Positions 3,093-63,976 are shown, counted from the stretch's first letter. The stretch: DNA of 64,000 nt from an uncultured Candidatus Saccharibacteria bacterium (GCA_964532425.1 CAZHIA010000003.1:117365-181364), one strand, 5' to 3'. Notes: generated by a model from the letters alone, not told the origin. Numbers and translations are program-made.

Positions 3093-3195
3093 CACAAATT
3101 GACCCTGTACCACTCATCTGTCTTGGGTAGATTCGGATGCAGGACACAGCACGAATTACCCCGGACGCCTATCATCGGTAAAATGATAGATTGCT

Positions 3196-3221
3196 GTAGG
3201 GGCGGATACCATCCGCCCTCC
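3196..3221. repeat. REP-like palindromic unit (gtaggggcggataccatccgccctcc) immediately upstream of the RAYT gene.
   Basis: GTAGGG + inner palindrome GGCGGATACCATCCGCC. Same family as 11528-11558, 50480-50514 and others. Confidence 0.7.
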
Positions 3222-3234
3222 AGTGTTTTGAAAA

Positions 3235-3759
3235 ATGTCTAATTCTCGAAAACAAAATCGTCTTCATTGCTATGATTACTCTCAACCGGGGTTCTATTTT
3301 GTAACTGTGTGCACACAAGGTAGGATTTGCTGTTTAGGAGAGATCATAAATGGAAAAATGAATTTGAGTGAAAACGGAAAAATTGTTGAGGAGTGCTGGC
3401 TCGGCATTCCACTTCATTACGAGAATGTGAGCATTGATTCGGCGCATATTGTCATGCCCAATCACTTGCATGGAATAATCATAATAGAACCTGTAGGGGC
3501 GGTTACTAACCGCCCTAGGAACCGGGCGGATGATATCCGCCCCTACAATAACACCAATCTTTCTGCAGTGGTGGGTTCATTCAAAAAAGCAGCATCCAAG
3601 CTGATCCATGCTGAATATACAGCATTTGATTGGCAAAAGTCTTTTTATGACCACGTCATCCGCAAAGATGAATCACTCGATAAAATTCGCGAATATATTC
3701 GCAACAACCCATTAAAATGGGAATTGGACAGAAACAATCCTTCCAATATCTGGATGTAG
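3235..3759 (+). CDS. REP-associated tyrosine transposase (RAYT), IS200/IS605-like Y1 transposase.
   Basis: HuH motif HIVMPNHLHGII and Tyr motif DWQKSFYDHVIRKDE. A REP-like pair lies in frame between the two motifs. Confidence 0.8.
   Translation: MSNSRKQNRLHCYDYSQPGFYFVTVCTQGRICCLGEIINGKMNLSENGKIVEECWLGIPLHYENVSIDSAHIVMPNHLHGIIIIEPVGAVTNRPRNRADDIRPYNNTNLSAVVGSFKKAASKLIHAEYTAFDWQKSFYDHVIRKDESLDKIREYIRNNPLKWELDRNNPSNIWM
3491..3546. repeat. Two REP-like units lying in frame inside the RAYT coding sequence.
   Basis: ctgtaggggcggttactaaccgccctag and gggcggatgatatccgcccctac are translated as ...EPVGAVTNRPRNRADDIRPY... Confidence 0.7.
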
Positions 3760-3842
3760 CGCAGGCCCGTGGCCTGCTATTTTATTATTCTAAAACAAAA
3801 TTAAAAAATGGACACGCGAATCAAATTCGCGTGCCCTGTTGC

Positions 3843-5735: not shown

Positions 5736-5973
5736 TCGCCCTGAGTCATTGCTATAAAAACAAAAACCGTCCCCACAGAGCCCCGATAACCGATACCTTC
5801 CCCCATGCTGTAATACGTGACAGCAATGCAGTGCAAAGTTCTTACTGCAGTACGGTGCAGTATTGCAGTGACTATCGTCTGCCTTAATCCCAAATCTTAA
5901 ATCATAAATCAGACCCCACCCTTTGCAACAAAGGGCGGGGTCATCCGGTCGAATGGCCGGGTCAAATGAAAAA

Positions 5974-20292: not shown

Positions 20293-20456
20293 TACTCCTC
20301 CTTGTGGACCTCATACTTTCGCATGTAATTCAGATTTTGTCAAGAGAGCTCCTATAATAAATAAACATGTATAGATGACTTCCCTGCCCCCAAACTCTTC
20401 GGAGTCCGGAGTTTTTTAAATTCCGAACCGCCACTTCCTGATGATATAATAGAGTT

Positions 20457-23385: not shown

Positions 23386-23417
23386 GGGCGCCGCTTCATT
23401 GCGGCGCCCGTTTTTTT
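23386..23417 (+). terminator. Rho-independent terminator gggcgccgc-ttcatt-gcggcgccc + TTTTTTT.
   Basis: Seen directly in the sequence. Confidence 0.8.
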
Positions 23418-23583
23418 GTTGTTATTATTTTTTTGTTTTGTAAAAATCCAAATTGTTCTACATTTTACTGCATATGCAGTAAAATGTAGAATAATTTAAT
23501 AGATAAATTTCATCACTGTTATGCTTTTCAAAAATTTATATACAAGTTAGAAAAACAGGCAGCGCGGAGCGCTGCCTGTAGTG

Positions 23584-31938: not shown

Positions 31939-32325
31939 ATGGACTCTTCTGGACAGAAACAACAAAACACGGGAGATCGTCCGTTTGCGGTCATCGTACT
32001 GCTCGCCATTGCCTGCATAGCTGCGCTGTGGTGGTTTTTGACTGACCTTCACCAAACCTACCGGATTGTCCGGCTGCACGAAACCATAGGCTCAAGGGCC
32101 CAACACCTCACTCCGTCTGACATCCAACCCTGGATGACCTTTGAATACGTCAATAGGGTCTTCAAACTGCCGCCTGAATACCTCAAGGCCCGCCTGAGCA
32201 TAAAAGACCGGCACTATCCCCGCCTACAGATCAACCATTACGCAAACACAAACCGGCTCGACGTACACCAGGCCATTCAAAGCGTACGCACCGCAGTCGA
32301 AGAGTACCAATCAATAAAAAAATAG
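31939..32325 (+). CDS. Hypothetical membrane-anchored protein.
   Basis: Single N-terminal TM helix. Confidence 0.5.
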   Translation: MDSSGQKQQNTGDRPFAVIVLLAIACIAALWWFLTDLHQTYRIVRLHETIGSRAQHLTPSDIQPWMTFEYVNRVFKLPPEYLKARLSIKDRHYPRLQINHYANTNRLDVHQAIQSVRTAVEEYQSIKK

Positions 32326-32339
32326 AAAATTTAGGCATG

Positions 32340-32415
32340 GTATCATAATCTTTTTATTTTTCTATTTTCTATTTTTTTATCTGGTTTCTATCTTTTTATC
32401 TTTCTATCATTATCG
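32340..32415. repeat. A/T-rich 7-bp-periodic tandem repeats (ttttcta ttttcta ttttttt atctggt ttctatc tttttat ctttcta).
   Basis: Seen in the sequence. Related in composition to 58505-58572. Confidence 0.55.
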
Positions 32416-35235: not shown

Positions 35236-35409
35236 ATGACAAAAAATAAGTAAAACCACTGCAAACGGTCAACGGTTTTCGGTAGCGCCGCGCGTATCGG
35301 CAATCGTTATTCGGCAAGCGGCCGCTCCTCACTTCGCATACCGAATACCGAAACGCGCCGCCCCGCCGAATAACGAGTTATGAGGTATTCTATTTTTATC
35401 ATTTCCCCT

Positions 35410-36156
35410 ATGAAGATTCTTCGCCTTACCATGGGCATGCCGGCGACGGTAGAAATTCGCGATACAGATGGAGCACGTGCAGACGCAGCCATCGGCAAAG
35501 TATTTGAATATTTCTCCGAAATAGACCAGCGGTTCAGCACTTACAAACCGGACAGCGAGATTAGCCGTATCAACCGCGGAGAACTCGAATGGGCAGACAT
35601 CAGTCCGGAAACGAAGGATATTCTTGCCCGGTCGCAGCAGACCAAGGAAGAAACGGCTGGTTACTTTAATATCCGGCGTCCGGACGGCTCTTTGGATCCT
35701 TCCGGCTTGGTAAAAGGCTGGGCTATTTGGCAAGCAGCCAAGCTGCTTGAGAATCTCGGGTTCCAACAGTTCATTGTCGACATCGGCGGAGACATTCAGG
35801 CCAAATCCCTTACCGCCGGTAGCTGGAAAATTGGCGTCCGCAATCCGTTCAATCGCGAACAAAACGTGAAGATTCTCACCCTCGGTAACGAAGGAATCGC
35901 TACGTCCGGCACTGCTATCCGCGGGCAACACATTTATAATCCTCACGAGCCAAAACAGCCCATTACCGACATTGCCAGCTTGACCGTAGTCGGCCCGAAC
36001 GTCTACGAGGCCGACCGATTTGCCACCGCCGCTTTTGCCATGGGCGCGGACGGAATCCGGTTTATCGAATCCGTTCCGGGCCTGGAAGCGTATATGATCG
36101 ACAAGGACGGCATAGCGACGATGACAACGGGGTTCGGGAAATACGTCCAAGAATAA
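35410..36156 (+). CDS. apbE: FAD:protein FMN transferase (ApbE family).
   Basis: ApbE signature blocks MPATVEI, SRINRGE, DPSGLVKGWA and IGGDI. The upstream in-frame ATG at 35380 is an alternative start. Confidence 0.85.
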   Translation: MKILRLTMGMPATVEIRDTDGARADAAIGKVFEYFSEIDQRFSTYKPDSEISRINRGELEWADISPETKDILARSQQTKEETAGYFNIRRPDGSLDPSGLVKGWAIWQAAKLLENLGFQQFIVDIGGDIQAKSLTAGSWKIGVRNPFNREQNVKILTLGNEGIATSGTAIRGQHIYNPHEPKQPITDIASLTVVGPNVYEADRFATAAFAMGADGIRFIESVPGLEAYMIDKDGIATMTTGFGKYVQE

Positions 36157-36268
36157 CAAATATCAAATCTCAAATAACCAATCAATAACAAATCTTTAAA
36201 TTTCAAATTCAGGGAATTGTCATTAAATATTCATTTGAAATTTGATATTTGATATTTGAAATTCATTT
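36157..36268. repeat. Inverted heptamer-array element: tatcaaa-type 7-mers (left) and tttgata/tttgaaa 7-mers (right) in the same 7-bp phase.
   Basis: caaatat caaatct caaataa ccaatca ... tttgaaa tttgata tttgata tttgaaa; the right units are the reverse complement of the left units. Confidence 0.65.
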
Positions 36269-37830: not shown

Positions 37831-37958
37831 ACACAACATTTAACCATTAACAATTAACATTTGACTGTAGTCGCCTCATCGGCGACCGCCGATAGGGTGG
37901 GAGGAGACCCTTGGTCTTCCCTATCCGGTCAAATGTCACATGTCAAAGGTCAAAGGTA
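37831..37958. repeat. Inverted heptamer-array element: ttaacaa/ttaacat 7-mers, a 60-bp spacer with a hairpin, then gtcaaat gtcacat gtcaaag gtcaaag.
   Basis: Same architecture as 57771-57837 and 63495-63558. Confidence 0.6.
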
Positions 37959-45632: not shown

Positions 45633-46784
45633 TTAAGCTATGATTCCCCCGCCCACGCATATCTTGCCATCGTATAAGACCAAGCTCTGGCCGGACGCGA
45701 TAGACTTTTGGGGAGTTTTGAAATGAACCAGGTACGTACCGCCATCTTTTTGTTCGATCGTGAGCGGGACTAAATCACCCTGATGACGGAAGCGGCCTGC
45801 CAGCTGCCAGCTTTTAGCTTCTAGCTTATAGGCTATAGCTTCAGGCTGCGCAATCCAGTTCAAAGAATGTAAGGTAATATCCAGGACTTGCAGCGCTTTG
45901 TCGTCCGGGTCATTGGTCACGTACAGGGTGTTGTCATTCAGGTCCTTGCGCACGACAAAATACGGCCCGCTGGCACCAACCTTAATACCCTGACGTTGGC
46001 CAATGGTATAGTTATGAAGGCCTTCATGCTGACCGATGGCATTACCATGCTGGTCGATAATCGGCCCCGGCTTGGGTTTGAGCTTTTGTTCCAAAAAATC
46101 CTTCAGGCGAATCTTACCGACAAAGCACAGCCCCATGCTTTCCTGGCGACTTGCGTTCGGCAATCCGATCTTTGCCGCCAGCTTTTTCACTTCGGCTTTC
46201 TTCATCTCGCCAATCGGAAACAGCAGATGCGGTAACTGTTCGGGCTTGATGTTGTAAATGAAATAGGTCTGATCTTTGAATTCGTCAACGCTACGCTCAA
46301 GTTGAAAATGCAAAGTTAAAAATTCAAAATTACGTGGTGTGTTATCACTTTTAACTTTTAACTTTTCACTTTTCACTATCCTTGCATAATGCCCGGTCGC
46401 CAAATAGTCAAACCCATGCTCCATGGCCCAGTTATAGAGCAGCTTGAACTTGATCTCCTTATTGCACATGACATCCGGATTCGGCGTACGCCCGGCTTCG
46501 TACTCGCGAAAAAAATACTCCATCACCGTGTCCTGGTACTGCCTTTCGAAATCGAGCGTGTAGAGCGGAATCTTCAAAAACGCGGCTACGCGCAGCGCTT
46601 CCTGCCGGTCAGCCAGCCAAGGGCACTCACTCTTTAAAAGACCTTCGGTCAAAGACCAGTTTTTCATAAAAGCTGCTTCAACTTCGTATCCAGCCCGAAT
46701 GAGCAGGTATGCCGAAACAGCAGAATCAATTCCGCCGGAAAGGGCGACGAGCACCTTATTTTTTTGGCCGCTCTTGCGTTTCAT
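45633..46784 (-). CDS. mnmA: tRNA-specific 2-thiouridylase MnmA.
   Basis: PP-loop VLVALSGGIDSAV, ATGHYAR, and C-terminal GKICVGGGII. Contains an in-frame insert of about 16 aa that coincides with the heptamer-array element at 46301-46377. Confidence 0.9.
   Translation of the reverse strand: MKRKSGQKNKVLVALSGGIDSAVSAYLLIRAGYEVEAAFMKNWSLTEGLLKSECPWLADRQEALRVAAFLKIPLYTLDFERQYQDTVMEYFFREYEAGRTPNPDVMCNKEIKFKLLYNWAMEHGFDYLATGHYARIVKSEKLKVKSDNTPRNFEFLTLHFQLERSVDEFKDQTYFIYNIKPEQLPHLLFPIGEMKKAEVKKLAAKIGLPNASRQESMGLCFVGKIRLKDFLEQKLKPKPGPIIDQHGNAIGQHEGLHNYTIGQRQGIKVGASGPYFVVRKDLNDNTLYVTNDPDDKALQVLDITLHSLNWIAQPEAIAYKLEAKSWQLAGRFRHQGDLVPLTIEQKDGGTYLVHFKTPQKSIASGQSLVLYDGKICVGGGIIA
46301..46377. repeat. 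Inverted heptamer-array element lying in frame inside mnmA (gttgaaa atgcaaa gttaaaa attcaaa ... actttta actttta acttttc acttttc).
   Basis: 4x perfect/near-perfect 7-mers. Encodes the extra segment ...KSEKLKVKSDNTPRNFEFLTLHFQ... which is absent from E. coli MnmA at this position. Confidence 0.65.
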
Positions 46785-46842
46785 GGTATTATATTTTACC
46801 AGAATTTGATATAATTGAAAAGTCCAATAATTATTTCAACAT

Positions 46843-48346: not shown

Positions 48347-48394
48347 GGTTTTCTGATTCCAATTTTATTTAATTTTAATTAATCTTACTTAATT

Positions 48395-49072
48395 TTACTT
48401 ATTCAAGTATTGTTCTATCTGCTTCTTCATCCCGTCCAGCGCCTGATTCTGCAGTTCGTGACCATTAAAGTAGAAGGTCGGTGTACCGCGGACACCTAAG
48501 GCTATGGACTGGTTATACTGTTGCTGGAGGTACGGCTTGTACTTGTCGGAGTTCATGTCCTGTTCGAATTTTGCAATATTCGAAACACCGACGGTCTGGG
48601 CATACTGGATAAACGCCTGGCGCGGATCGATCATGTTCTCCCAAGCTTGCTGGTTGGAGAACAATTGATCATGCATTTCCCAAAACTTACCCTGCTCCCC
48701 TGCCGCTTCAGCCGCATAAGAAGCAATGACGGAATTCTTATGAATCTGGAATATTGGGTAGTAACGGAATACTAGCACCGTATCCGGCTCCTGGTCGACA
48801 AGCTGCTTAATTACCGGATTGAATGCCGCGCAGGCTGGACACTGAAAGTCCTCGTAGGTAACCAGAACATTCTTAGCCTGGGGATTACCGAGCACATGAT
48901 CGGCCTTTGCATCAACCGGCGGCACGGTTTGGATAGGCTGCAGGTCTTTCGGATCATCCAGCTTGGTCGTAAAACTGACCTGCTGATTGTTTTGCGGAGA
49001 CAGGCTATAGAGATAGTATCCCAAACCTACGGCCACAAGGACGATCACGATTATAGTGATGGTTTTTTTCAT
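48395..49072 (-). CDS. DsbA-like thioredoxin-fold thiol:disulfide oxidoreductase, membrane-anchored.
   Basis: N-terminal TM helix; FQCPACAAF CxxC active site. Confidence 0.7.
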   Translation of the reverse strand: MKKTITIIVIVLVAVGLGYYLYSLSPQNNQQVSFTTKLDDPKDLQPIQTVPPVDAKADHVLGNPQAKNVLVTYEDFQCPACAAFNPVIKQLVDQEPDTVLVFRYYPIFQIHKNSVIASYAAEAAGEQGKFWEMHDQLFSNQQAWENMIDPRQAFIQYAQTVGVSNIAKFEQDMNSDKYKPYLQQQYNQSIALGVRGTPTFYFNGHELQNQALDGMKKQIEQYLNK

Positions 49073-50597: not shown

Positions 50598-51731
50598 TTA
50601 CTGAGGGTTCTGTCTCATTCGCTGCCAGATGACCAACCACCACGCGCCAAGTGTCATTAGGAAGACCACAAATACTACAAGCCAACCGATGACCGGAATG
50701 AGCCGTAAAATGGTCCACGCCAGCACCCCAACCAGCACAATCTGCCAGTCCCGGGGCTGGGGCCGCTTGCCCACCCGTTTCATCAGCCAGCTGCCGGCCA
50801 GCAAAGCACTCTGTAATCCCGCTATGAGCAGCATAAGGATATACGCAAGCAGCACGACTGCGGCAACATAATACCCAATTAAGGTAGCAAACAGTATGAC
50901 AATCGCAATCGGGACCGCAACAAGCAGCAGTAGTCCCGTCCCAAGGGCAACCCACGGCCTGCGCCAAACAGTTTCCTCAAGTTCCTGGAAGCTGCCGCGG
51001 CGCAGTCTAAGCAGTAAGAACGAGGCGATCAGCCATGCCAACAAGGTAATGAAGAATGAAGCCGTGGTAAGCCCTGCCCGCTTATGCCAGGAGCGCGGCT
51101 GCTGCTGGGTGAAATTGATGGATGAAATTTTAGCAGACGGATCAACGCTGGCTGGACGAGGGCCTTTGTACGTTATAGTTCCCGAAGCCGCTGCTTTCGG
51201 TCCGAAGACCAGGTCTTGGGAAGCTTGCACATCTATTCTGCCTCCCACCGTGCTATTGATGGCAATCCTTCCGCCCGCGGCTTTGATATTGCCGGTCACT
51301 GGACCGTTCAACTCTACCATGCCACCACCGATAACAAGATCGCCCCCAACCGTAGCAGTATCAGAAATAACCACCGTACCCCCGGCTACCACCAGATCGC
51401 CTGCCACCGGGCCGTTGATCGTAATATTGCCGCCGGCGATGCGAGCATTGGAACCAACCTTGCCGGACGCGACAATGGTGCCACCGGCTGCCAGCAAATC
51501 CTGATCAACCGTACCAGTAACCGTGATGGTCCCACCTGCCACGGTGAGATCGCTTTGTACCGGCCCGTTAATGACCACGGTATTTCCTGCTGTATACAAA
51601 TTTTTATGGGTCTCGCCGGCCGCGGTAGTTATCTGGCCGGATTGGCCGGGCATCACAAACTCGGCCGCTTGGGCGCTGGGAGCCAGAACAAACATGGACA
51701 CCAGCCCCGCAACCCAAAATAGTTTTTTCAT
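50598..51731 (-). CDS. Secreted protein with bactofilin-like (polymer-forming cytoskeletal / DUF583) beta-helical repeats and a C-terminal multi-TM anchor.
   Basis: Signal peptide; repeats GDLVVAGGTVVISDTATVGGDLVIGGGMVELNGPVTGNIKAAGGRIAIN; C-terminal hydrophobic helices. Confidence 0.55.
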   Translation of the reverse strand: MKKLFWVAGLVSMFVLAPSAQAAEFVMPGQSGQITTAAGETHKNLYTAGNTVVINGPVQSDLTVAGGTITVTGTVDQDLLAAGGTIVASGKVGSNARIAGGNITINGPVAGDLVVAGGTVVISDTATVGGDLVIGGGMVELNGPVTGNIKAAGGRIAINSTVGGRIDVQASQDLVFGPKAAASGTITYKGPRPASVDPSAKISSINFTQQQPRSWHKRAGLTTASFFITLLAWLIASFLLLRLRRGSFQELEETVWRRPWVALGTGLLLLVAVPIAIVILFATLIGYYVAAVVLLAYILMLLIAGLQSALLAGSWLMKRVGKRPQPRDWQIVLVGVLAWTILRLIPVIGWLVVFVVFLMTLGAWWLVIWQRMRQNPQ

Positions 51732-53017: not shown

Positions 53018-53048
53018 CCGGAGAGGAGCAATCCTCTCCGGTTTTTTT
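53018..53048 (+). terminator. Rho-independent terminator ccggagagga-gcaat-cctctccgg + TTTTTTT.
   Basis: Seen directly in the sequence. Confidence 0.8.
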
Positions 53049-53055
53049 ATTTCCT

Positions 53056-53925
53056 TTATTTATTCGCGCAGGCATCGAAGTTTTCAACCTGCTGGTTGTA
53101 GGCTGCGATGAGCGACTGGAGCTGGCCGAGGCGGGTATCGTAGGAAATAACCAAATCATTGAACTGCCGCACCTGCTCATTGTATGCATCAGCTTCCTGC
53201 TTGGTCGTCGGCGTCTGACTGCTGAGCCAGGCTTTCCATTCCTCAATTTTCTTGAGCGTGGTCTGCAGCTCGGTCCGCTGGCTATCAATGCTCGCTTTCG
53301 CTGACTGGTCCACAGTAGGACAATCCGAAAGCGGCCTGCCGAACTCCTGGACTGCCAGCCAGACCGTCTGGCCCTCATACTGGCCTTTCCCGACCGCTAC
53401 CCCAATTTCCGTATACCGATCATTTAAAATATTGGCCCTATGGCCCGGGCTGTTCATCCAAGCATCTACGAGCGCTGCGTCATTTTTAAAGTCGCCTAAA
53501 GCCAGATTTTCGCCTTCTACAATGAATTGATACCCGACCTGGGTAGCCAAGCCATCCGGACCGACCCCCTGGGGGGAAACATGCTCGAAGTACTGTTTGG
53601 CGAACATGTCTTTAACTTTCAGTTGGGCGGCTTGGTCCAGCTTGCTGTTTTCTTTCAGCGCCGGCAAGTTACCATTAGCCCGGCGTTGCTGATTCGTCGC
53701 CGCAACCGTTCCAGTCACAGTCAATTTACCTACTGCGGAAGGTGTAGAAGGGGGTGCCTTGAGCGGCGGCGGGGTCGAGATATCTTTTTGAACATCCTTA
53801 ACCAGCTGCCCTACGGTCTGGATCTGGCGCGTGCTGGGAAGACGGTGCAAATATTTCTCTATTGCAAACCGGTAATTCCAGGCAACAGCAGCAAGGAGTA
53901 TGACAATGATGACGGATTTTTTCAT
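53056..53925 (-). CDS. CAP-domain (SCP/YkwD-like) secreted protein with an N-terminal anchor and a C-terminal coiled-coil.
   Basis: HVSPQG...WMNSPGHRANIL...YTEIGVAV (CAP motifs). Confidence 0.8.
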   Translation of the reverse strand: MKKSVIIVILLAAVAWNYRFAIEKYLHRLPSTRQIQTVGQLVKDVQKDISTPPPLKAPPSTPSAVGKLTVTGTVAATNQQRRANGNLPALKENSKLDQAAQLKVKDMFAKQYFEHVSPQGVGPDGLATQVGYQFIVEGENLALGDFKNDAALVDAWMNSPGHRANILNDRYTEIGVAVGKGQYEGQTVWLAVQEFGRPLSDCPTVDQSAKASIDSQRTELQTTLKKIEEWKAWLSSQTPTTKQEADAYNEQVRQFNDLVISYDTRLGQLQSLIAAYNQQVENFDACANK

Positions 53926-54000
53926 ATTTATAAATTTCTTTCAACCTCAGTTCTAACTAAATTTCGCGGGGTGGCCCGCCGAGGGAATAACTGCGGATAA

Positions 54001-54140
54001 AATTCGAATATCGAAATACTAAATCCGAAACAAACTCTAAATTATAAACTCTAAATAACAAACTTTCTGCTTCGAATTTGAAATATTAGAATTTGGAATT
54101 TGTTTCGAATTTCGGGATTCGAATTTAGAATTTATTTTCG
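54001..54140. repeat. A/T-rich 7-bp-periodic repeat region (aattcga atatcga ... aacaaac tctaaat ... cgaattt cgggatt cgaattt agaattt).
   Basis: 7-bp phase is maintained over about 140 bp; the left units (aattcga) are inverted relative to the right units (cgaattt). Confidence 0.5.
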
Positions 54141-54177: not shown

Positions 54178-54744
54178 TCATAACCCCAATATCCCCGAGA
54201 TAGGCCGCAATGCCCCAATAACAAAATTAATATGTTCGTCCTTATCGACGCCTAACTCCGCTATCCCCTGCTCAATGTCATCGCGGCTGACTTTGGCGGC
54301 AAAACTTTTATCTTTGAGCTTCTTTTTTACCGACGGCGCTTCCAGAGTCAACAAATGGTCGGGCCGCATGTAAGCACAGGCAGTAATAAAGCCGCACAGC
54401 TCATCCACGGCAAACAGAACTTTGGCCATTTGCAATTTCCGCGGCACGCCGCTGTAGGTGGCGTGACCTAAAATTGCCTCGATCATTTCCGCGGGGTAGC
54501 CCAAATGTTCCAGCTCTTTGACTCCTTCGAACGGGTGGCCAGTCTTTGCAACAGGATCCACCGTTGGAAACCGCTCGTAATCAAAGTCATGCAGCAAGCC
54601 GGTAATCCCCCACAGCTCTTCGTCCTCACCAAACTTTTTAGCATACGCCCGCATAGCTGCCTCAACTGCATACATATGCCGGCGCAGGCTTTCGGACTGT
54701 ACCCAGTCATGCAATAGAAGGTTGGATTGTTCTCTGGTGATCAT
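54178..54744 (-). CDS. HD-domain phosphohydrolase.
   Basis: H...HD motif (LLHDWVQ ... GLLHDFDYE). Confidence 0.75.
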   Translation of the reverse strand: MITREQSNLLLHDWVQSESLRRHMYAVEAAMRAYAKKFGEDEELWGITGLLHDFDYERFPTVDPVAKTGHPFEGVKELEHLGYPAEMIEAILGHATYSGVPRKLQMAKVLFAVDELCGFITACAYMRPDHLLTLEAPSVKKKLKDKSFAAKVSRDDIEQGIAELGVDKDEHINFVIGALRPISGILGL

Positions 54745-56598: not shown

Positions 56599-57744
56599 TC
56601 ATCGAAAGCCCTTACAAAAATCCACAAACTCTCCATACCCTTCCTTCAACGTCTTCGTGTCCGCAGCAAAAGACAGTCGGACGAATCCCGGGCTGCCAAA
56701 CGCCTCGCCCGGTACCGCAGCGACCCCCGCTTCAAGCAGCAAGCGCCGGCAAAAATTCGCCGAGTCCTTGGTAATTTTCCTGATATCGATAAAAAAGTAA
56801 AATGCACCCTGCGGTTCTGTAAAAGAAATTTTTCTCGATTTTTTCAAGATCACCGTACACAGTTTGCGCCGCTTTTTCAGTTCAGTCACGAAACCCGCGG
56901 TCACTGTTCCGTCCTTTAAGCTCGCCAAAGCTGCGTACTGGCTTGGGACCGCCGCATTACCGCTCGTGTGGCTAACGAACTTGTTGAGGGCGCCAATTAT
57001 ATTTTTGTTTGCGGCCACATACCCAATACGCCAGCCGGTCAACGCATGACTCTTGGAAAACCCGTTCACAATCGCGACGAAGTCCAAGCTCTTGGCAAAC
57101 TTCGTGGCTGGCGCAGGCTTGGTCCCGTAGACGAGCTGGTTGTAAATATCATCCGCAATGACCATTATGCCCCGCTGCTCGCAGAGCTTTACAACCTTCT
57201 CTGTCTCATCATCGGAAAATACCGCTCCAGTCGGATTATGTGGCGAATTAATAATAACGGCTTTGGTCCGCCCGGTCACTGCGCTGGCAATCCTGGCCGC
57301 ATCAAGGTCAAAGTTCTTTTTCAGAGGCACATGAACCGGCACGCCGCCTGCTAATTTGATCTGAAAATCATAACTCACCCATCCTGGAAGCGGAACAATA
57401 ACCTCGTCACCCGGATCCAGCAGGACCTGAAACAAGCAATACAATACTTGTTTCGCACCGGCCATTACCGCAATATTCTGCTGGGAGACCTGAATACGGT
57501 ATTGTTTCTGTACAGAGACGGCCAATTCTTCGCGCAATTCCCCCATACCAAGCGCCGGGGTATACCGGTTTTTATCCAATACACGAGAAACCGCTTTGCG
57601 TACCGGCGCTGGAGTTTCGAAATCGAGCTCGCCGGCGGTCAAATTCCAAACCCGCTCTCCCTGGGCTTGCAGCGCTTCCGCTTCGGCGTTCAGCTGAAGC
57701 GTCAGGCTTTCTGAAATGGAATCGAGACGAGAACTTAATTGCAT
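56599..57744 (-). CDS. Class I/II pyridoxal-phosphate-dependent aminotransferase (aspartate aminotransferase-like).
   Basis: PLP-lysine block FSKSHALTGWRIGY; the upstream in-frame Met at 57792 lies inside the repeat element. Confidence 0.85.
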   Translation of the reverse strand: MQLSSRLDSISESLTLQLNAEAEALQAQGERVWNLTAGELDFETPAPVRKAVSRVLDKNRYTPALGMGELREELAVSVQKQYRIQVSQQNIAVMAGAKQVLYCLFQVLLDPGDEVIVPLPGWVSYDFQIKLAGGVPVHVPLKKNFDLDAARIASAVTGRTKAVIINSPHNPTGAVFSDDETEKVVKLCEQRGIMVIADDIYNQLVYGTKPAPATKFAKSLDFVAIVNGFSKSHALTGWRIGYVAANKNIIGALNKFVSHTSGNAAVPSQYAALASLKDGTVTAGFVTELKKRRKLCTVILKKSRKISFTEPQGAFYFFIDIRKITKDSANFCRRLLLEAGVAAVPGEAFGSPGFVRLSFAADTKTLKEGYGEFVDFCKGFR

Positions 57745-57770
57745 AATTTGAATCTTAATGCACAAGAACA

Positions 57771-57837
57771 TTTGACATTTGACCTGTGACATGTGACCGA
57801 ATGCAGTCGGTCAATTGTTAAATGTCAATTGTCAATT
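57771..57837. repeat. Inverted heptamer-array element: tttgaca tttgacc tgtgaca tgtgacc, an 11-bp spacer, then gtcaatt gttaaat gtcaatt gtcaatt.
   Basis: Seen in the sequence; the left block is 29/33 identical to 63495-63527. Confidence 0.7.
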
Positions 57838-57839
57838 GT

Positions 57840-58493
57840 TTATTTCACCCCTTCCCACTCGCTAAAAAATTCTTCTAAAAATTTTTCCATATATGCATGC
57901 CGGTTGCGGGCAAGCTGTTTGGCGGTTTTTGTGTTCAGCCGATCCTTGATGAGCAGCAGCTTTTCGTGGAAATGATGGATAGCTGCGGCTTCATGCTGCC
58001 TAAACTGTTCGACAGAAGAGATCTTTCTCGGCTTTGCTCCGGGAATGTACGGCGGTATGCCGTGAGCGCCTGCATATGTAAAACAGCGGACAACTCCCAT
58101 AGCCCCAATGGCATCGAGCCGGTCAGCATCCTGCACCACCTTCCCTTCTAATGATATCTTCTGCGCCTGTATGACATTCTTGCTAAAAGACATACGAGCA
58201 ACTATATGCAGAATCCGCTCCCGATCACCGGGCGCTACCCGCATCCGATTAAGCCATGCCCCCGCCTTTTCTTCCAGCCGATCCACTCGATCCGGTTCCA
58301 GCTTATAATCACCAAGATCATGCAGCAACGCCGCCATTTCGACTACGAACATGTCCGCGTGCTCAGCCTTGCCGATCCGCTTGGCCAATTGCCAGACGCG
58401 CCAAATATGCCACCAGTCGTGGCCGCTGCGGTCACCGGAAAACTCCTTTTTGATAAAATCTTCCGTTTGTTTAATAATCTGGCGCTTGGTCAT
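57840..58493 (-). CDS. HD-domain phosphohydrolase.
   Basis: HDWWHIWRV ... AALLHDLGD ... DADRLDAIG. Confidence 0.75.
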   Translation of the reverse strand: MTKRQIIKQTEDFIKKEFSGDRSGHDWWHIWRVWQLAKRIGKAEHADMFVVEMAALLHDLGDYKLEPDRVDRLEEKAGAWLNRMRVAPGDRERILHIVARMSFSKNVIQAQKISLEGKVVQDADRLDAIGAMGVVRCFTYAGAHGIPPYIPGAKPRKISSVEQFRQHEAAAIHHFHEKLLLIKDRLNTKTAKQLARNRHAYMEKFLEEFFSEWEGVK

Positions 58494-58504
58494 ATAAAAT
58501 TTAA

Positions 58505-58572
58505 AAATAGAAAGATAGAAAAATAGAAAATTAATTGCACTTAATTTTTAAATCTTTTTATTTTCTATTTTT
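58505..58572. repeat. Inverted heptamer-array element: agaaaga tagaaaa atagaaa, a spacer, then cttttta ttttcta ttttttt.
   Basis: Seen directly in the sequence. Confidence 0.6.
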
Positions 58573-59778
58573 TTATTGCGTCCCCCTGCCTACCGCTTCG
58601 CTGATATTCTTATATCCGTCTTGCTCGAGTAATCTGACCAGTCCGCGATTGATATCACTGATCGCTTCGGGACCTTCGAAGATCATGCCGGTGATCAACT
58701 GAATCAGACTCGCGCCGAGCTTGATCTTTCTATAGGCATCCTCAGCCGTAAACACGCCGCCGCACCCGATGATCACGAATTCTCCGCGCGTCTTTTGATA
58801 CAGATAGGCAATTTGCCGGTCAGACAACGCCTGTACTACCTTGCCCGACATGCTGCCACTTTGAGGCAAATCGGATTCCTTAATGTTCGGGTTAGACCGG
58901 TCTTTGGCCAGATTGGTACTGATAAACCCCGTGATTTTATGCTTGCGCGCAACTTCGATCATGCCATCCAAAACTTGTTCAGGCATCTCGGCCGGCATTT
59001 TGATGAAGACTGGTTTTTGGTTCGGTACCTGGCGTAAAGCTGTCATAAGGCGGTCGAACTTCTCCGGGGTAGTGAACGGCTCGCCGCCAAAGGCATTCGG
59101 ACAGGAAATATTGACCGTAAAATAATCGCCGGTGTTCGCATCCACGAAGGTCTTGTACGCCTTCACGTAATCCGCAATACCAGCTTGTTCCTCGACCGTG
59201 TCGGCACTGTTAGTCTTGGCAATAGATATCCCGATCGGTATTCGACTGACGGTGTAAGGACGGGCCTGCGCCTTACCGGCGGGCAGGTCGACCCGTTCAG
59301 AAGCGGAACGGTCTCGACCGTTCCCTACAGACTGTAGTCTCTTCACGATTGCTTTACATCCGTCATTTTTAAGTCCGTAATACACGACCAGGCTCCCCGA
59401 CCGCTTCAACCGCCACAGTCGCGGCTTGGGATTGCCCGCACACGGGTTGCCAGTAACCGAGCCAATCTCTTCAAATCCAAATCCCACTTCGGGCAGGATC
59501 TGCGTCAAATGCGCGTCCTTGTCAAATCCGGCCGCAAGGCCTATGGGATTTTCAAAACGGATGCCGGCAACGGTTTGGGCCAACATAGGACTATCATAAC
59601 CGAACATGACTCTCGTCAATCCGCGGGTTGCTGCCGTTTTGCCGAGCATGGAGCCGACGAATGTCATACGGTCATGCACCGCTTCCGGATCGGCAAGAAA
59701 AAACAACGGCTTCAGCACGCCTTTATACGCAACCCGGATAACTGCATTGCGCGCAATAATAAGAGAATCTTTAAGCAT
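58573..59778 (-). CDS. pyrD: Dihydroorotate dehydrogenase (quinone), class 2.
   Basis: N-terminal membrane-association helix; GNPKPRLWRL, IGSVT and GGV blocks; contains an in-frame REP-like insert. Confidence 0.85.
   Translation of the reverse strand: MLKDSLIIARNAVIRVAYKGVLKPLFFLADPEAVHDRMTFVGSMLGKTAATRGLTRVMFGYDSPMLAQTVAGIRFENPIGLAAGFDKDAHLTQILPEVGFGFEEIGSVTGNPCAGNPKPRLWRLKRSGSLVVYYGLKNDGCKAIVKRLQSVGNGRDRSASERVDLPAGKAQARPYTVSRIPIGISIAKTNSADTVEEQAGIADYVKAYKTFVDANTGDYFTVNISCPNAFGGEPFTTPEKFDRLMTALRQVPNQKPVFIKMPAEMPEQVLDGMIEVARKHKITGFISTNLAKDRSNPNIKESDLPQSGSMSGKVVQALSDRQIAYLYQKTRGEFVIIGCGGVFTAEDAYRKIKLGASLIQLITGMIFEGPEAISDINRGLVRLLEQDGYKNISEAVGRGTQ
59290..59330. repeat. REP-like unit (ggaacggtctcgaccgttccctacag) lying in frame inside pyrD.
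   Basis: Translated on the minus strand as ...QSVGNGRDRSASERVDLP... Confidence 0.65.
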
Positions 59779-60688
59779 TGGCTCGTTTGGATTTAATAAA
59801 GAAGAAAGCGACGATAACGAATGTGATGACCGGAGAAGTCCACTCCGGTATTTCGGCACCGAAACTGTCGGCGAGCATAATAAGACCGAGCGCGAGAATG
59901 GAATACATGGCCCCGTTCTTCAAAAATATGTACTGTTTGATGCGGTCGACATTATGCACGGTCAGCTGCCGGACCACGAGCGCCCCCAGGCTGTTCCCCA
60001 CCAAAATGAGTGGTACCGACAATGTAAAAGCAAACGCGCCGAGCACGCCATCAACAGAAAAGGTCGTGTCAATTATTTCAAGATACAAGATTTTGCTCAA
60101 ATCAGACAAACTACCGCTTTTGTCACGCAGCAAGGTCTCTTCGCTCTTGGCAGCGTTCTCTTTAAAACCGTGGGTAATAAAAAATGCGGTCGAGCCGGCT
60201 ACGGCTGCCAGGGCCATGTACGGATTCACGGCAAGCGCCTTCCAGACAATGCCGAGCAACAGGACAGAGATGACCGCAAAAAACCACACGCCTTGCCGTG
60301 CGATAAAACGTTCGCCTGGCAAGCCAAATTCCTTTTCTTCCAAAAATAACCAGTGAAAAAACAGAAAGATCAAAAAGACTCCGCCGGCCAGCAGAAGCAG
60401 CGGGGCCGAACGGTGCACCGCCTCCAGTACTTTCGGGTCGGAACTGAAGGTGGCGGTCAGTGCCCCAATAGGACCGAGAGACGGCGTTGCCAGCCAGACA
60501 ATGAGCCACGGCAGCAGACCTCTGACCACGAACACGGCAAACAGCATTCCCCACAGCAAAAACCACTTGCGGGCTTTCTGGCCCATGCCGGACAGGACTT
60601 CCGCGTTAATGATCGCGTTATCGATGCTGGACACCGTTTCAAACAGGCAAAGCCCGGCAACGGTAATGGCAATGGTAATGAAAGACAT
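59771..60688 (-). CDS. TerC-family / DUF475 integral membrane protein.
   Basis: ETVSSIDNAII and DTTFSVDGVLGAFA blocks; multiple TM helices. Confidence 0.7.
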   Translation of the reverse strand: MSFITIAITVAGLCLFETVSSIDNAIINAEVLSGMGQKARKWFLLWGMLFAVFVVRGLLPWLIVWLATPSLGPIGALTATFSSDPKVLEAVHRSAPLLLLAGGVFLIFLFFHWLFLEEKEFGLPGERFIARQGVWFFAVISVLLLGIVWKALAVNPYMALAAVAGSTAFFITHGFKENAAKSEETLLRDKSGSLSDLSKILYLEIIDTTFSVDGVLGAFAFTLSVPLILVGNSLGALVVRQLTVHNVDRIKQYIFLKNGAMYSILALGLIMLADSFGAEIPEWTSPVITFVIVAFFFIKSKRANA

Positions 60689-62989: not shown

Positions 62990-63484
62990 TCAGGAATTCC
63001 TAGTTTCATTCGTTTTCCACGTTCGCGTCTTGTTGTATTCCATCTTCTTTTCCGCCTCGGCAGCCAGATCGAACTGATATGCGTGAGACAGGCCGACCAC
63101 CGCGAAAGCAATGTCAGCAAGCGCCAGCTTGAACTCCTCTTCCCTGTGCTGCCGATAATGTTCGTACGCTATCGAAGCCAGCTTATGCAGTCCGGCGATC
63201 TGCGCATCGATGGAGGCCGCTGGTTCAGGCGCGGAAAACTCCGCAGGAAACACCACGCCGTATGCGCCGGCCAAATGCAAAGTCCTCAGCAGGACGTCGG
63301 CCAATTCCTCATAAAAACCGTCTTTGCCCGTCAGGTTCTGCTTTTGATGCGCATCATATGCTTCGGAAATTTCGGAATGAATGAGTGCGATCTTTTCCGC
63401 CACGACCAGCTGGTCCGGCGCTATGCCGAAGCCTTTGCTGGCTGCTATCTCTAGGTTTTTTTGTTTGATGAGTTCGAGATTCAT
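62990..63484 (-). CDS. MazG-like all-alpha nucleotide pyrophosphohydrolase.
   Basis: EELADVLLRTLHLA motif; the upstream in-frame Met at 63517 lies inside the repeat element. Confidence 0.55.
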   Translation of the reverse strand: MNLELIKQKNLEIAASKGFGIAPDQLVVAEKIALIHSEISEAYDAHQKQNLTGKDGFYEELADVLLRTLHLAGAYGVVFPAEFSAPEPAASIDAQIAGLHKLASIAYEHYRQHREEEFKLALADIAFAVVGLSHAYQFDLAAEAEKKMEYNKTRTWKTNETRNS

Positions 63485-63494
63485 AATTAGGAAC

Positions 63495-63558
63495 ATTTGA
63501 CAATTGACCTTTAACATGGGACCGGTTGCAGAAAGTCAAAAGTCAAATGTTACATGTT
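63495..63558. repeat. Inverted heptamer-array element: tttgaca attgacc tttaaca tgggacc, an 8-bp spacer, then aaagtca aaagtca aatgtta catgtta.
   Basis: Seen in the sequence; homologous to 57771-57837. Confidence 0.7.
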
Positions 63559-63976
63559 AATTGTTGTTCTGTGATATCAAATCCTTCCAATGTTCAATAT
63601 ACTGTCGCTCTTTATTTTCGTATTCTTCCCGAGAACTGAGCGGGATATGCAACATCTGCATCCGCTGTTTCAGCTCTGCCATAGCCAGTTGTCGGTCGCG
63701 TTCATCCGCCATTTTTTCCAGTTGGACAATATAGCCGCAACCTTTGAGGAAATCCAGAGTGACCCCAATCCCATTCCAAATAAAAACATTCCTGACCCTG
63801 TGCCATTTGACGCGGACCGGATACCCCAGAGACACAAACAACTCGATCATTTTGTTGAAATCAGCCAATCCGAATTTTATTTCAGCGCCATCGGTAACCA
63901 ACAGTGCTTGCGAAGTATTGCGCTGTATGGATATCCGGCTCGGCGCCTCAAGCTGCACAATCTCCTGCCGGTCCAC
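63557..63976 (-). CDS. CYTH-like domain protein. The start is uncertain because the ORF is open toward the window edge.
   Basis: C-terminal block GIGVTLDFLKGCGYIVQLEKM resembles the CYTH C-terminus (cf. VTVGIDTWPKVPTYVELE in 2529-3092). Confidence 0.45.
   Translation of the reverse strand: MDRQEIVQLEAPSRISIQRNTSQALLVTDGAEIKFGLADFNKMIELFVSLGYPVRVKWHRVRNVFIWNGIGVTLDFLKGCGYIVQLEKMADERDRQLAMAELKQRMQMLHIPLSSREEYENKERQYIEHWKDLISQNNN

What the first reader, a model, noticed from the sequence alone, without database searches (positions are those of the whole stretch)
57771..57837. Family of intergenic elements built from two mutually inverted arrays of 7-bp tandem repeats (iteron-like), at six or more loci
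Seen in the sequence: at 57771-57837, four direct heptamers (tttgaca tttgacc tgtgaca tgtgacc), an 11-bp spacer, then four heptamers of the inverse type (gtcaatt gttaaat gtcaatt gtcaatt). The same architecture recurs at 63495-63558 (left block 29/33 identical), 37831-37958 (60-bp spacer containing a hairpin), 36157-36268 (tatcaaa vs tttgata units, in phase over 11 periods), 58505-58572 (atagaaa vs tttctat), 54001-54140 and 32340-32415 (partial, same A/T-rich unit type), and 46301-46377 inside mnmA. The unit sequence differs between loci but the layout is constant: array, spacer, reverse-complement array, 7-bp period. All intergenic copies lie between two genes on the same strand, immediately upstream of the downstream gene's start. 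7-bp tandem arrays are too short for CRISPR and do not match the 10-11-bp spacing of typical response-regulator boxes. Inference: candidate binding platforms for an oligomeric DNA-binding protein, or a MITE-like mobile element family. The TTGAC-type units contain sigma70 -35-like hexamers, but the two arms are convergent, which argues against simple promoters.
Basis: seen in the sequence. Interest (0 to 1): 0.7.

Follow-up and report, generated by a model that had tools for sequence, protein, structure and literature searches.

The report
Heptamer-repeat hairpins between genes (STRR-like)
The window, from an uncultivated Patescibacteria (CPR) genome, holds long imperfect hairpins whose two arms are mutually inverted runs of 7-base repeats; these match the poorly understood heptamer "STRR" hairpins of cyanobacteria and Xanthomonas, here in a new phylum and also inserted in frame in a housekeeping gene.

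Summary
At 57771-57837 there are 4 heptamers, an 11-nt loop and 4 inverse heptamers, exactly as described. Lag-7 arrays are about 40-200 times more frequent than in locally shuffled sequence (12 against 0.06-0.32), and about half have a reverse-complement partner nearby. The genome is a Doudnabacteria-like CPR genome. Its relatives carry the same architecture with other units, both intergenic and in frame inside mnmA; more distant CPR loci almost lack it. The elements are not canonical promoters or terminators, which exist separately in the window. They match no Rfam family. They share no common unit, so a single sequence-specific binding protein is unlikely. Each arm is homogenised on its own. 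RNA pairing shows no consistent sense-strand advantage (better antisense at two loci, sense at one). Orthologous spacers carry unrelated sequences. Whole hairpin modules recur within a genome: a GTCA type with 3 copies, an ATAGAAA type with 2 copies, and two sites within one mnmA gene. Best reading: STRR-type heptanucleotide-repeat hairpins that grow by 7-nt slippage, are copied as modules, and are largely neutral or selfish. The same architecture is published for cyanobacteria (hupS-hupL hairpins) and Xanthomonas (convergent GGGAATC arrays). This is a new member of a known, unexplained kind. The in-frame, RPE-like coding copies are the most interesting part.

The parts
57810..57837 (-). Focal element, 5' arm on the transcribed (-) strand: CAATTGA CAATTGA CATTTAA CAATTGA. 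It starts 2 nt after the TAA stop (57840-57842) of the HD-domain gene 57840-58493.
57799..57809 (-). Focal element, 11-nt spacer. The inner arm ends pair, leaving a 6-nt hairpin loop.
57771..57798 (-). Focal element, 3' arm on the transcribed strand: GGTCACA TGTCACA GGTCAAA TGTCAAA. It ends about 22 nt before the likely ATG (57743-57745) of the aminotransferase gene.
63495..63558 (-). GTCA-type paralogue, in the same orientation relative to its genes. The TAA stop of ORF 63557-63976 lies in its first heptamer. It ends about 7 nt before the likely ATG (63482-63484) of the MazG-like gene.
37831..37958 (+). GTCA-type paralogue with an insert of about 58 nt in its loop (37869-37926). The insert starts GTAG plus a GC hairpin (REP-like).
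36150..36265 (+). TATCAAA/TTTGATA-type hairpin between ApbE (35380-36156) and the 36301-37827 gene. Arms are 37-52 nt and 77-81% complementary.
58498..58577 (-). ATAGAAA-type hairpin with a 7/8-nt period. Its 5' end, CAATAAAAAAATAGAAAAT, contains the TAA stop of the DHODH-like gene 58573-59859.
32312..32412 (+). ATAGAAA-type paralogue. The same 19-nt 5' end supplies the last codons and the TAG stop of ORF 31939-32325, in a different frame. A 17-bp perfect inverted repeat is followed by further T-rich heptamers.
54000..54137 (-). TTCGAAT/AAACTCT-type hairpin between an HD gene (54178-54744) and the CAP-domain gene (53056-53925). Arms are 36-48 nt and 72-77% complementary.
46299..46381 (-). Heptamer hairpin in frame inside mnmA (45633-46784). 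It adds about 16 residues relative to solved MnmA structures and is modelled as a beta-hairpin extension with a low-confidence tip.
45792..45842 (-). Single heptamer array (AAGCTNN units with an AGCT palindromic core) in frame at the third variable site of mnmA. The same unit occurs at the orthologous site of L015.
5881..5919 (-). Single T-rich heptamer array (TGATTTA units on the - strand) directly after a GC-rich terminator-like hairpin. It shows 7-nt repetition without an inverse arm.

Best explanation
These are STRR-type heptanucleotide-repeat hairpins: non-coding (occasionally coding) palindromic modules whose two arms are degenerate tandem arrays of a 7-nt unit and of its reverse complement.

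Shown:
- They are a lineage-wide trait of this Doudnabacteria-like CPR clade.
- Unit sequences are arbitrary and differ between loci and between genomes.
- Each arm is homogenised on its own.
- Orthologous spacers are replaced wholesale between relatives.
- Complete modules (arms plus loop) recur at other sites of the same genome, including in-frame positions in mnmA.

Inferred mechanism:
- The lineage has a strong bias towards 7-nt replication slippage. The same bias also duplicates a -35 box and extends terminator T-tracts.
- Slippage expands and homogenises each arm.
- Fold-back or template switching, or copying of whole modules, creates and spreads the inverted arrangement.
- Imperfect AT-rich palindromes are tolerated in spacers, and in surface loops of proteins when no stop codon falls in frame.

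The intergenic copies lie between co-directional genes with no promoter or terminator motif, so they are probably transcribed inside polycistronic mRNAs, where they can form long AU-rich stem-loops. Any effect there (3'-end protection, insulation or coupling of cistrons) is secondary and unproven. They are best seen as largely neutral or selfish DNA, not as dedicated regulatory sites.
For: Periodicity and inverse pairing are far above chance.

Clade-wide distribution:
- Lag-7 segments number 12 in 64 kb in the window and 17 in 69 kb in relatives L013-L015 and L136, against 1 in 171 kb in other CPR loci.
- Units differ at every locus and in every genome.

Arms evolve separately:
- Within-arm unit identity is 5.27/7 against 4.95/7 between arms.
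- Some arms are perfectly homogeneous yet mismatched to their partner in every heptad: L037 (CATTTGA)4 against (CCATTGA)4, L021, and L136 site 1.

No consistent sense-strand RNA advantage: sense/antisense energies are -27.8/-35.2 kcal/mol for 57771, -23.4/-38.6 for 36157 and -22/-18 for 63495.

The orthologous ybaB-to-peptidase spacer holds unrelated hairpin or heptamer sequences in five genomes.

Heptamer repetition also occurs outside hairpins:
- A T-rich array follows a terminator hairpin in the window and in L384.
- TTGACAATTGACA occurs in a consensus promoter.

Module copying is shown.

Coding copies deviate from the unit exactly where TAA would fall in frame (and reading of L013 10400-10480).

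Canonical GC-rich hairpin plus T-run terminators and TTGAAA-17-TATAAT promoters exist elsewhere and do not coincide with the elements. No Rfam family overlaps them.

Published precedent:
- Hairpins built of 7-bp STRR repeats lie between hupS and hupL in several cyanobacteria (PMC2670836).
- Xanthomonas genomes carry 70-75 convergent GGGAATC array pairs each, with the heptamer excess attributed to polymerase slippage (PMC4692102).
Against: - No direct evidence of slippage was obtained. The only multi-sample contigs were 100% identical.
- Why the period is 7 remains unexplained.
- Slippage alone does not create an inverse arm, and the copying route for whole modules is unknown.
- The five members of the two multi-copy families all have the same orientation relative to their genes (chance 1/8). 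This hints at a transcription-related constraint or function.
- Some hairpin of one kind or another is kept at the same spacer or codon position in most relatives. That could reflect selection for a structure.
Confidence: 0.6

Rival explanations
1. A true non-autonomous mobile element family (MITE/REPIN/RPE-like). The hairpins are moved by an enzyme acting on single-stranded hairpin DNA, for example a Y1/HUH transposase such as the RAYT-like protein at 3235-3759. The heptamer periodicity would be a secondary decoration or part of the recognition sites.
For: - Paralogous copies occur at unrelated loci.
- Two copies sit in one gene, with conserved loops, in L013 and L014.
- The same peptide recurs at two sites of MnmA in P0021, P0060 and P0093.
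- Elements are present or absent at orthologous spacers.
- In-frame insertions resemble RPEs (PMC10969869).
- A RAYT-like gene with cognate GTAG hairpins lies in the window.
- A REP-like insert sits in the loop of 37831.
Against: - There are no target-site duplications and no shared termini across unit types.
- Most elements have unique units.
- The RAYT's own GC-rich GTAG repeats are a different sequence class, and the heptamer hairpins lack GTAG at their foot.
- The site-1 insert in MnmA shows residual homology across many relatives (SxKLKVxS...N..L.T.H[YF]). This indicates vertical descent, not repeated insertion.
Confidence: 0.2
2. Selected RNA stem-loops within operons. They would act as 3'-end stabilisers, RNase III processing sites, or devices that couple or insulate translation of neighbouring cistrons, with the sequence free to drift.
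For: - The hairpins start at or overlap the upstream stop codon and end 7-36 nt before the next start in most cases.
- Genes downstream of them lack Shine-Dalgarno motifs.
- Some structured element is kept in the same spacer in all relatives.
- Stems of 25 bp or more are typical RNase III substrates (general knowledge).
- The cyanobacterial literature proposes transcript stability or translational coupling for STRR hairpins (PMC2670836).
Against: - For 57771 and 36157 the antisense strand folds much better than the sense strand.
- Systematic mismatches recur in every heptad.
- The distance to the start codon varies from 7 to 74 nt.
- Single-arm arrays and coding copies exist.
- Shine-Dalgarno motifs are rare genome-wide, in 14 of 53 genes, so their absence here is not specific.
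Confidence: 0.15
3. Operator arrays for a protein that binds one 7-bp box per dimer and polymerises along DNA, as the omega repressor of inc18 plasmids does on WATCACW heptads. Convergent arrays would be the preferred arrangement.
For: - The 7-bp period and the mix of direct and inverted heptads match omega operators (own knowledge, not tested).
- GTCA-type arms keep a TTGAC/GTCAA core with two variable positions.
- The unit TGTCACA resembles AATCACA.
Against: - Unit types at other loci share no core.
- The arrays are not at promoters.
- They occur inside mnmA.
- The flanking genes have unrelated functions.
- GTCA-type arrays are no more common than control units in a large collection: 29, 29 and at least 120 loci.
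Confidence: 0.05

Closest known systems
STRR (short tandemly repeated repetitive) heptanucleotide sequences of heterocystous cyanobacteria, including the hupS-hupL intergenic hairpin
   Same: 7-bp tandem units; several unit sequences per genome; intergenic position between co-transcribed genes; ability to form a hairpin; function unknown, with stability or translational coupling proposed (PMC2670836). They also occur inside a functional gene, RNase P RNA (title of Vioque 1997, cited in PMC2858038).
   Different: A different phylum (CPR, not cyanobacteria), different units, much smaller genomes, in-frame copies inside a protein-coding gene, and dispersed paralogous modules.
Xanthomonas GGGAATC and Nostoc GGGGAYT heptamer repeats (Rehm et al. 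2015, PMC4692102)
   Same: Heptamer SSRs are strongly over-represented in intergenic DNA. Each Xanthomonas genome has 70-75 pairs in convergent orientation that can form stem-loops. Length and sequence vary between close relatives while the position is kept.
   Different: Those are one G-rich unit family per genome with G-quadruplex potential. Here the units are many, mostly AT-rich, and have no G4 potential.
Rickettsia palindromic elements (RPE)
   Same: Palindromic repeats inserted in frame into housekeeping genes at structurally tolerated positions, in a reduced genome (PMC10969869).
   Different: RPEs are about 150 bp, form conserved sequence families that encode a conserved peptide, and have no 7-nt periodicity.
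REP/REPIN elements with RAYT transposases
   Same: Intergenic hairpin repeats, often between co-directional genes. A RAYT-like gene and GTAG-footed GC hairpins are present in this very window. REPINs are described as miniature mobile DNA (PMC3116915, title and abstract only).
   Different: REPs are short, GC-rich, conserved genome-wide and carry a 5' GTAG. The heptamer hairpins have none of these features.
Omega-repressor heptad operators of inc18 plasmids / iterons
   Same: Arrays of 7-bp boxes in direct and inverted orientation (own knowledge).
   Different: Operators share one conserved box and sit on promoters. These arrays differ in unit from locus to locus, are intercistronic or coding, and have no identified binding protein.

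Membership tests
STRR / heptamer-SSR hairpins | Tandem units of 7 nt, at least 3-4 copies, degenerate | tested here: met
   TRF period 7 at 57768-57839, 37835-37957, 36152-36263, 46305-46377 and 54032-54133. Lag-7 excess.
STRR / heptamer-SSR hairpins | Several different unit sequences within one genome | tested here: met
   GTCA, TATCAAA, ATAGAAA, TTCGAAT, AAAAGTT and AAGCT units in 64 kb.
STRR / heptamer-SSR hairpins | Convergent array pairs able to form a stem-loop, in intergenic spacers of operons | tested here: met
   All seven intergenic copies lie between co-directional genes.
STRR / heptamer-SSR hairpins | Transcribed with the flanking genes | not testable with these tools
   No expression data. 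The absence of promoter and terminator motifs at the elements is only indirect.
STRR / heptamer-SSR hairpins | Host lineage is cyanobacteria or xanthomonads | tested here: not met
   Nearest relatives are Cand. Doudnabacteria / Patescibacteria MAGs. This is a taxonomic criterion, not a structural one.
MITE | Target-site duplications flanking the element | tested here: not met
   No consistent flanking direct repeats at five elements. Element boundaries are uncertain.
MITE | Terminal inverted repeats matching an autonomous IS in the genome | not tested
   Only 64 kb plus 7 kb of the genome are available, and no IS was seen in the genes scanned.
MITE | Multiple near-identical dispersed copies | tested here: inconclusive
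   Two families with 3 and 2 copies, 88-100% identical over 19-34 nt only. The other loci are unique within the window.
REP/REPIN-RAYT | Short GC-rich hairpin with a conserved 5' GTAG, repeated genome-wide | tested here: not met
   The heptamer hairpins are AT-rich with no GTAG foot. A separate class in the window does meet this: GTAGGGGCGG, 12 matches against 3.4 expected.
REP/REPIN-RAYT | Cognate RAYT gene present | tested here: inconclusive
   Window 3235-3759 hits NF047646 at E 1.5e-12 and 47.6 bits (cut-off 80), and PF01797 at 22.9 bits (cut-off 23). HUH and Tyr motifs are present.
Rickettsia palindromic elements | Palindromic element inserted in frame in housekeeping genes | tested here: met
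   mnmA insert in the window and in relatives.
Rickettsia palindromic elements | Membership of the conserved RPE sequence families / conserved encoded peptide | tested here: not met
   Insert sequences differ wholesale between related genomes. No sequence comparison with the RPE families themselves was run, and the host is not Rickettsia.
Iterons / heptad operators | One conserved box shared by all sites of the regulon | tested here: not met
   Units differ between loci.
Iterons / heptad operators | Overlap with a promoter or an origin | tested here: not met
   No promoter-like site coincides with the elements scanned (44-64 kb). GC skew is monotonic across the window, so no origin is indicated.
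Intrinsic terminators | GC-rich stem followed by a T run | tested here: not met
   None of the 25 terminator-like calls lies in an element. Canonical terminators occur elsewhere, for example 45011-44987 and 53018-53041.

The most novel reading that the evidence does not exclude
A CPR clade carries an actively propagating population of heptad-periodic palindromic modules. They use existing hairpins as landing pads, replace one another at fixed positions, and insert in frame into essential genes (three recurrent sites in MnmA). Within a genome they are homogenised by an unknown copy mechanism, possibly a Y1/HUH enzyme or a polymerase-specific 7-nt template switch. This would be a new mode of selfish-DNA spread and of protein-loop innovation in ultra-small genomes.
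Probability: 0.2. Interest if true: 0.65.

Novelty: new member of a known kind. Interest (0 to 1): 0.42.

Why it matters
Heptamer repeats are the one class of longer simple repeats known to be over-represented in prokaryotes, and nobody knows why the period is 7 or what the paired arrays do. Finding the same architecture at high density in tiny, streamlined CPR genomes, where little DNA is expected to be tolerated without cost, gives a compact system for asking two questions: whether the cause is mutational (a polymerase property) or functional, and how palindromic DNA enters essential proteins. Practically, these elements mislead gene callers. Start codons were called inside the arms at 57792 and 63517. 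The elements also create lineage-specific low-confidence loops in conserved enzymes.

Tried and rejected
- Promoter reading rejected. The TTGACA boxes in the arms have no -10 partner at 16-18 nt, and the scan finds none in the elements (manual check of 57745 and 63484 upstream regions).
- Terminator reading rejected.
- Known RNA family: none at gathering threshold or at E of 0.1 or less.
- CRISPR and TIGR arrays: wrong period; considered only from the literature listing.
- GTCA as a special, widely conserved motif: rejected. The metagenome scan gave at least 120 loci from unrelated taxa, GC 0.32-0.68. Permuted control units are equally or more common in viral contigs: 29, 29 and at least 120.
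- Period 7 against 6 or 8 in viral contigs gave 29, 48 and 19 loci, which is uninformative.
- Strain polymorphism: contigs carrying identical MnmA were 100% identical in DNA, so there was no test of 7-nt indels.
- A-rich 5' arm / T-rich 3' arm polarity holds in 7 of 8 window elements but is reversed in relatives, so it is not a rule.
- The global lag-7 excess in pooled intergenic DNA is small. Only the local test is decisive.
- The source contig beyond the window was only partly retrievable: L012 is identical to the window and L384 adds 7.4 kb. One look-up failed and one returned no DNA.
- Elhai 2008 and Vioque 1997 could not be read.

Full report
**Observation.** The sequence at 57771-57837 reads exactly as reported: four direct heptamers, an 11-nt spacer and four inverse heptamers. 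The longest inverted repeats in the whole window are these elements, with arms of 23-52 nt that are 72-81% complementary. A sliding test (at least 16 of 21 self-matches) gives 12 segments at lag 7. Other lags give 0-3, and the harmonic lag 14 gives 6. Shuffling within 50- or 100-nt blocks, which keeps the local A/T richness, gives 0.32 or 0.06 segments on average. Pooling the window with four related loci, 15 of 29 lag-7 segments have a 12/14 or better reverse-complement match within 130 nt. Reverse-only and complement-only controls give 1 and 3 of 29. The hairpins fold better than dinucleotide shuffles, with z-scores from -2.3 to -6.0 on the transcribed strand. The pooled intergenic excess is small, so the signal is local.

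**Context.** Protein relatives place the window in Patescibacteria (CPR), close to Candidatus Doudnabacteria. The DHODH-like protein is 50-74% identical to proteins encoded in CPR MAG loci. MnmA is 60-72% identical to proteins named Doudnabacteria or Patescibacteria. An identical 14.4-kb stretch exists in an independent assembly, so the elements are not assembly artefacts.

The focal element lies between an HD-domain gene (57840-58493) and an aminotransferase gene, both on the minus strand. The ORF finder's start at 57792 lies inside the element; the likely start is the ATG at 57745. The same applies to 63517, where the likely start is 63484.

The genome has ordinary GC-rich hairpin plus T-run terminators and TTGAAA-17-TATAAT promoters, often abutting the start codon. 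None coincides with a heptamer element. Only 14 of 53 genes have a Shine-Dalgarno-like motif. No Rfam family matches the elements.

**Anatomy.** Each element is a long imperfect hairpin. On the transcribed strand it starts at or overlaps the upstream stop codon and ends 7-74 nt before the next start.

Five of the eight window elements fall into two multi-copy families:
- GTCA type: 57771, 63495 and 37831, 88-90% identical over 29-34 nt.
- ATAGAAA type: 58505 and 32340. These share a 19-nt 5' end, CAATAAAAAAATAGAAAAT, which supplies the stop codon of the upstream ORF in two different frames.

All five have the same orientation relative to their genes even though the genes lie on different strands. 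GC skew does not change sign across the window, so orientation follows transcription and not replication. The chance probability is only 1/8.

No target-site duplications were found. The 37831 copy carries an insert of about 58 nt in its loop that begins GTAG followed by a GC hairpin.

**Relatives.** Contigs encoding MnmA homologues (L013, L014, L015, L136) show the same architecture with entirely different units. It occurs in spacers (L013 8441-8535; L015 13397-13472, which lies between divergent genes; L015 5053-5085) and inside mnmA. Lag-7 segment density is 12 per 64 kb in the window and 17 per 69 kb in these relatives, against 1 per 171 kb in eleven more distant CPR loci. The spacer after ybaB is orthologous in five genomes and holds five unrelated hairpin or heptamer sequences.

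**Coding copies.** The element at 46299-46381 is in frame in mnmA and adds about 16 residues relative to solved MnmA structures. AlphaFold models it as a beta-hairpin extension with a tip below pLDDT 50. The third variable site, residues 314-322, is also low.

An alignment of 24 homologues shows three hypervariable sites with 'protein palindromes'. Two homologues have no insert. In L013 the modules at sites 1 and 3 are 87% identical, loop included. In L014 the modules at sites 1 and 2 are 79% identical. Where a perfect unit would put TAA in frame, the unit is altered: GGGTACA replaces GGGCTAA at L013 10412-10418.

Many relatives keep a recognisable site-1 peptide pattern (SxKLKVxS...N..L.T.H[YF]), which indicates vertical descent. 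A subclade (P0021, P0060, P0093, P0100) and L136 have wholly different inserts at the same position.

**Tests of function.**

RNA level:
- For 57771 the antisense strand folds better than the sense strand (-35.2 against -27.8 kcal/mol).
- The same holds for 36157 (-38.6 against -23.4 kcal/mol).
- For 63495 the order is reversed (-18 against -22 kcal/mol).
- Sense-strand pairing is therefore not optimised.

Arms:
- Unit identity within an arm (5.27/7) is at least as high as between arms (4.95/7).
- In several cases an arm is perfectly homogeneous yet mismatched to its partner at the same positions in every heptad: L037, L021 and L136 site 1.
- This is the signature of within-array homogenisation, not of selection for pairing.

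Heptamer repetition also occurs without hairpins. T-rich arrays directly follow terminator hairpins (window 5881-5919; L384 6588-6636). A tandem TTGACAA sits in a consensus promoter at L384 5614-5650.

DNA-binding platform: the units share no core across loci, and the arrays do not sit on promoters.

GTCA motif:
- A scan of metagenomes for GTCA-type arrays returned at least 120 loci from unrelated taxa. These contigs are themselves rich in other heptamer arrays: 295 lag-7 segments against 5-40 at other lags in 735 kb.
- Permuted control units are as common or more common in viral contigs. The GTCA unit is therefore not special.

**Comparison with the literature.**
- In filamentous cyanobacteria, STRR sequences 'usually made up of 7 bp repeats' form hairpins between hupS and hupL in several species. 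Their function is unknown, with transcript stability or translational coupling suggested (PMC2670836).
- In Xanthomonas, 70-75 pairs of GGGAATC arrays per genome lie in convergent orientation and can form stem-loops. Their positions are conserved between species while length and sequence vary. The general heptamer excess in bacteria has been attributed to polymerase slippage (PMC4692102).
- RPEs are the precedent for palindromic elements inserted in frame in housekeeping genes (PMC10969869).
- I found no paper describing such elements in CPR bacteria. That absence is limited to the library searched.

**Mechanism.** Shown: the periodicity, the inverse pairing, the clade distribution, independent homogenisation of the arms, wholesale turnover at fixed positions, module duplication within genomes, and in-frame tolerance. 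Inferred: a lineage-specific bias to 7-nt slippage expands the arms. Fold-back or template switching, or module copying, generates and spreads the inverted layout. The elements are mostly neutral or selfish, and any RNA-level effect is secondary. I give this 0.6. The rivals are enzymatic transposition (0.2), selected RNA stem-loops (0.15) and heptad operators (0.05).

**Verdict.** It is best filed as a new member of the known but unexplained heptamer-repeat (STRR-like) hairpin class, in a new phylum. The RPE-like in-frame copies, and a co-resident REP/RAYT-like system, are the points most worth following.

Noticed in passing
window 3190-3760: A RAYT-like Y1/HUH transposase gene (3235-3759) hits NF047646 at E 1.5e-12, below the cut-off, and has NHLHG and SFYDH motifs. 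A GTAG-footed GC hairpin lies upstream (3196-3222). Two more lie inside its own ORF, in frame (3492-3515 and 3524-3547). GTAGGGGCGG-like sites number 12 in the window against 3.4 expected.
   Followed up: partly
window 37869-37926: The '60-bp spacer with a hairpin' of element 37831-37958 looks like a nested insertion into the loop of a GTCA-type hairpin. It consists of GTAG plus the stem TCGCC/GGCGA, followed by a second hairpin, GATAGGG...CCCTATC. The loops of 57771 and 63495 (GAC..CTGCA..GGTC) look like the empty state.
   Followed up: partly
window 45633-46784 and alignment A1; L013 10400-11165; L014 10412-10851; L136 6380-7110: MnmA of this clade has three hypervariable insertion sites: after GHYA, after KPKPGPI and after HSVNWI. 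Protein lengths range from 352 to 469 aa. In several genomes the same module or peptide occupies two sites of the one gene, and two homologues have no insert.
   Followed up: partly
window, upstream of many genes (e.g. 46785-46825, 20430-20456, 50598-51731 start): -10-like boxes lie only 4-12 nt before the ATG, and Shine-Dalgarno motifs occur in only 14 of 53 genes. This suggests widespread leaderless or near-leaderless mRNAs in this organism.
   Followed up: no
window 23450-23497: A near-perfect 48-nt AT-rich palindrome (24-nt arms, 96% complementary) lies between convergent genes and is flanked by two canonical terminators. A weak Rfam SprD hit at 23386-23508 (29.7 bits against a cut-off of 100) is probably chance.
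   Followed up: no
window 48361-48401: A tandem array of period 10 (AATTTTACTT, 4 copies) lies in the 48-nt spacer between the DsbA-like and NUDIX genes.
   Followed up: no
L384 5614-5650 and 6575-6636 (7.4 kb upstream of the window): A consensus promoter, TTGACA-17-TATAAT, has its -35 box tandemly duplicated as TTGACAATTGACA. A terminator hairpin is followed by a T-rich heptamer array, as at window 5881-5919.
   Followed up: partly
L016-L135 (metagenome loci): (GTCAAAN)n arrays occur in contigs of GC 0.32-0.68 from unrelated organisms. Contigs with one heptamer array tend to carry several with other units. Some copy the focal layout closely: L037 2565-2653, (CCATTGA)5-CCGATGCT-(GTCAAAT)4 on the minus strand, and L118 8026-8102.
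   Followed up: partly
window 57792 and 63517: The first in-frame start codons of the aminotransferase and MazG-like ORFs fall inside the heptamer arms (ATG within CACATGT / CCCATGT). Automatic gene calls here are likely about 11-16 codons too long.
   Followed up: partly
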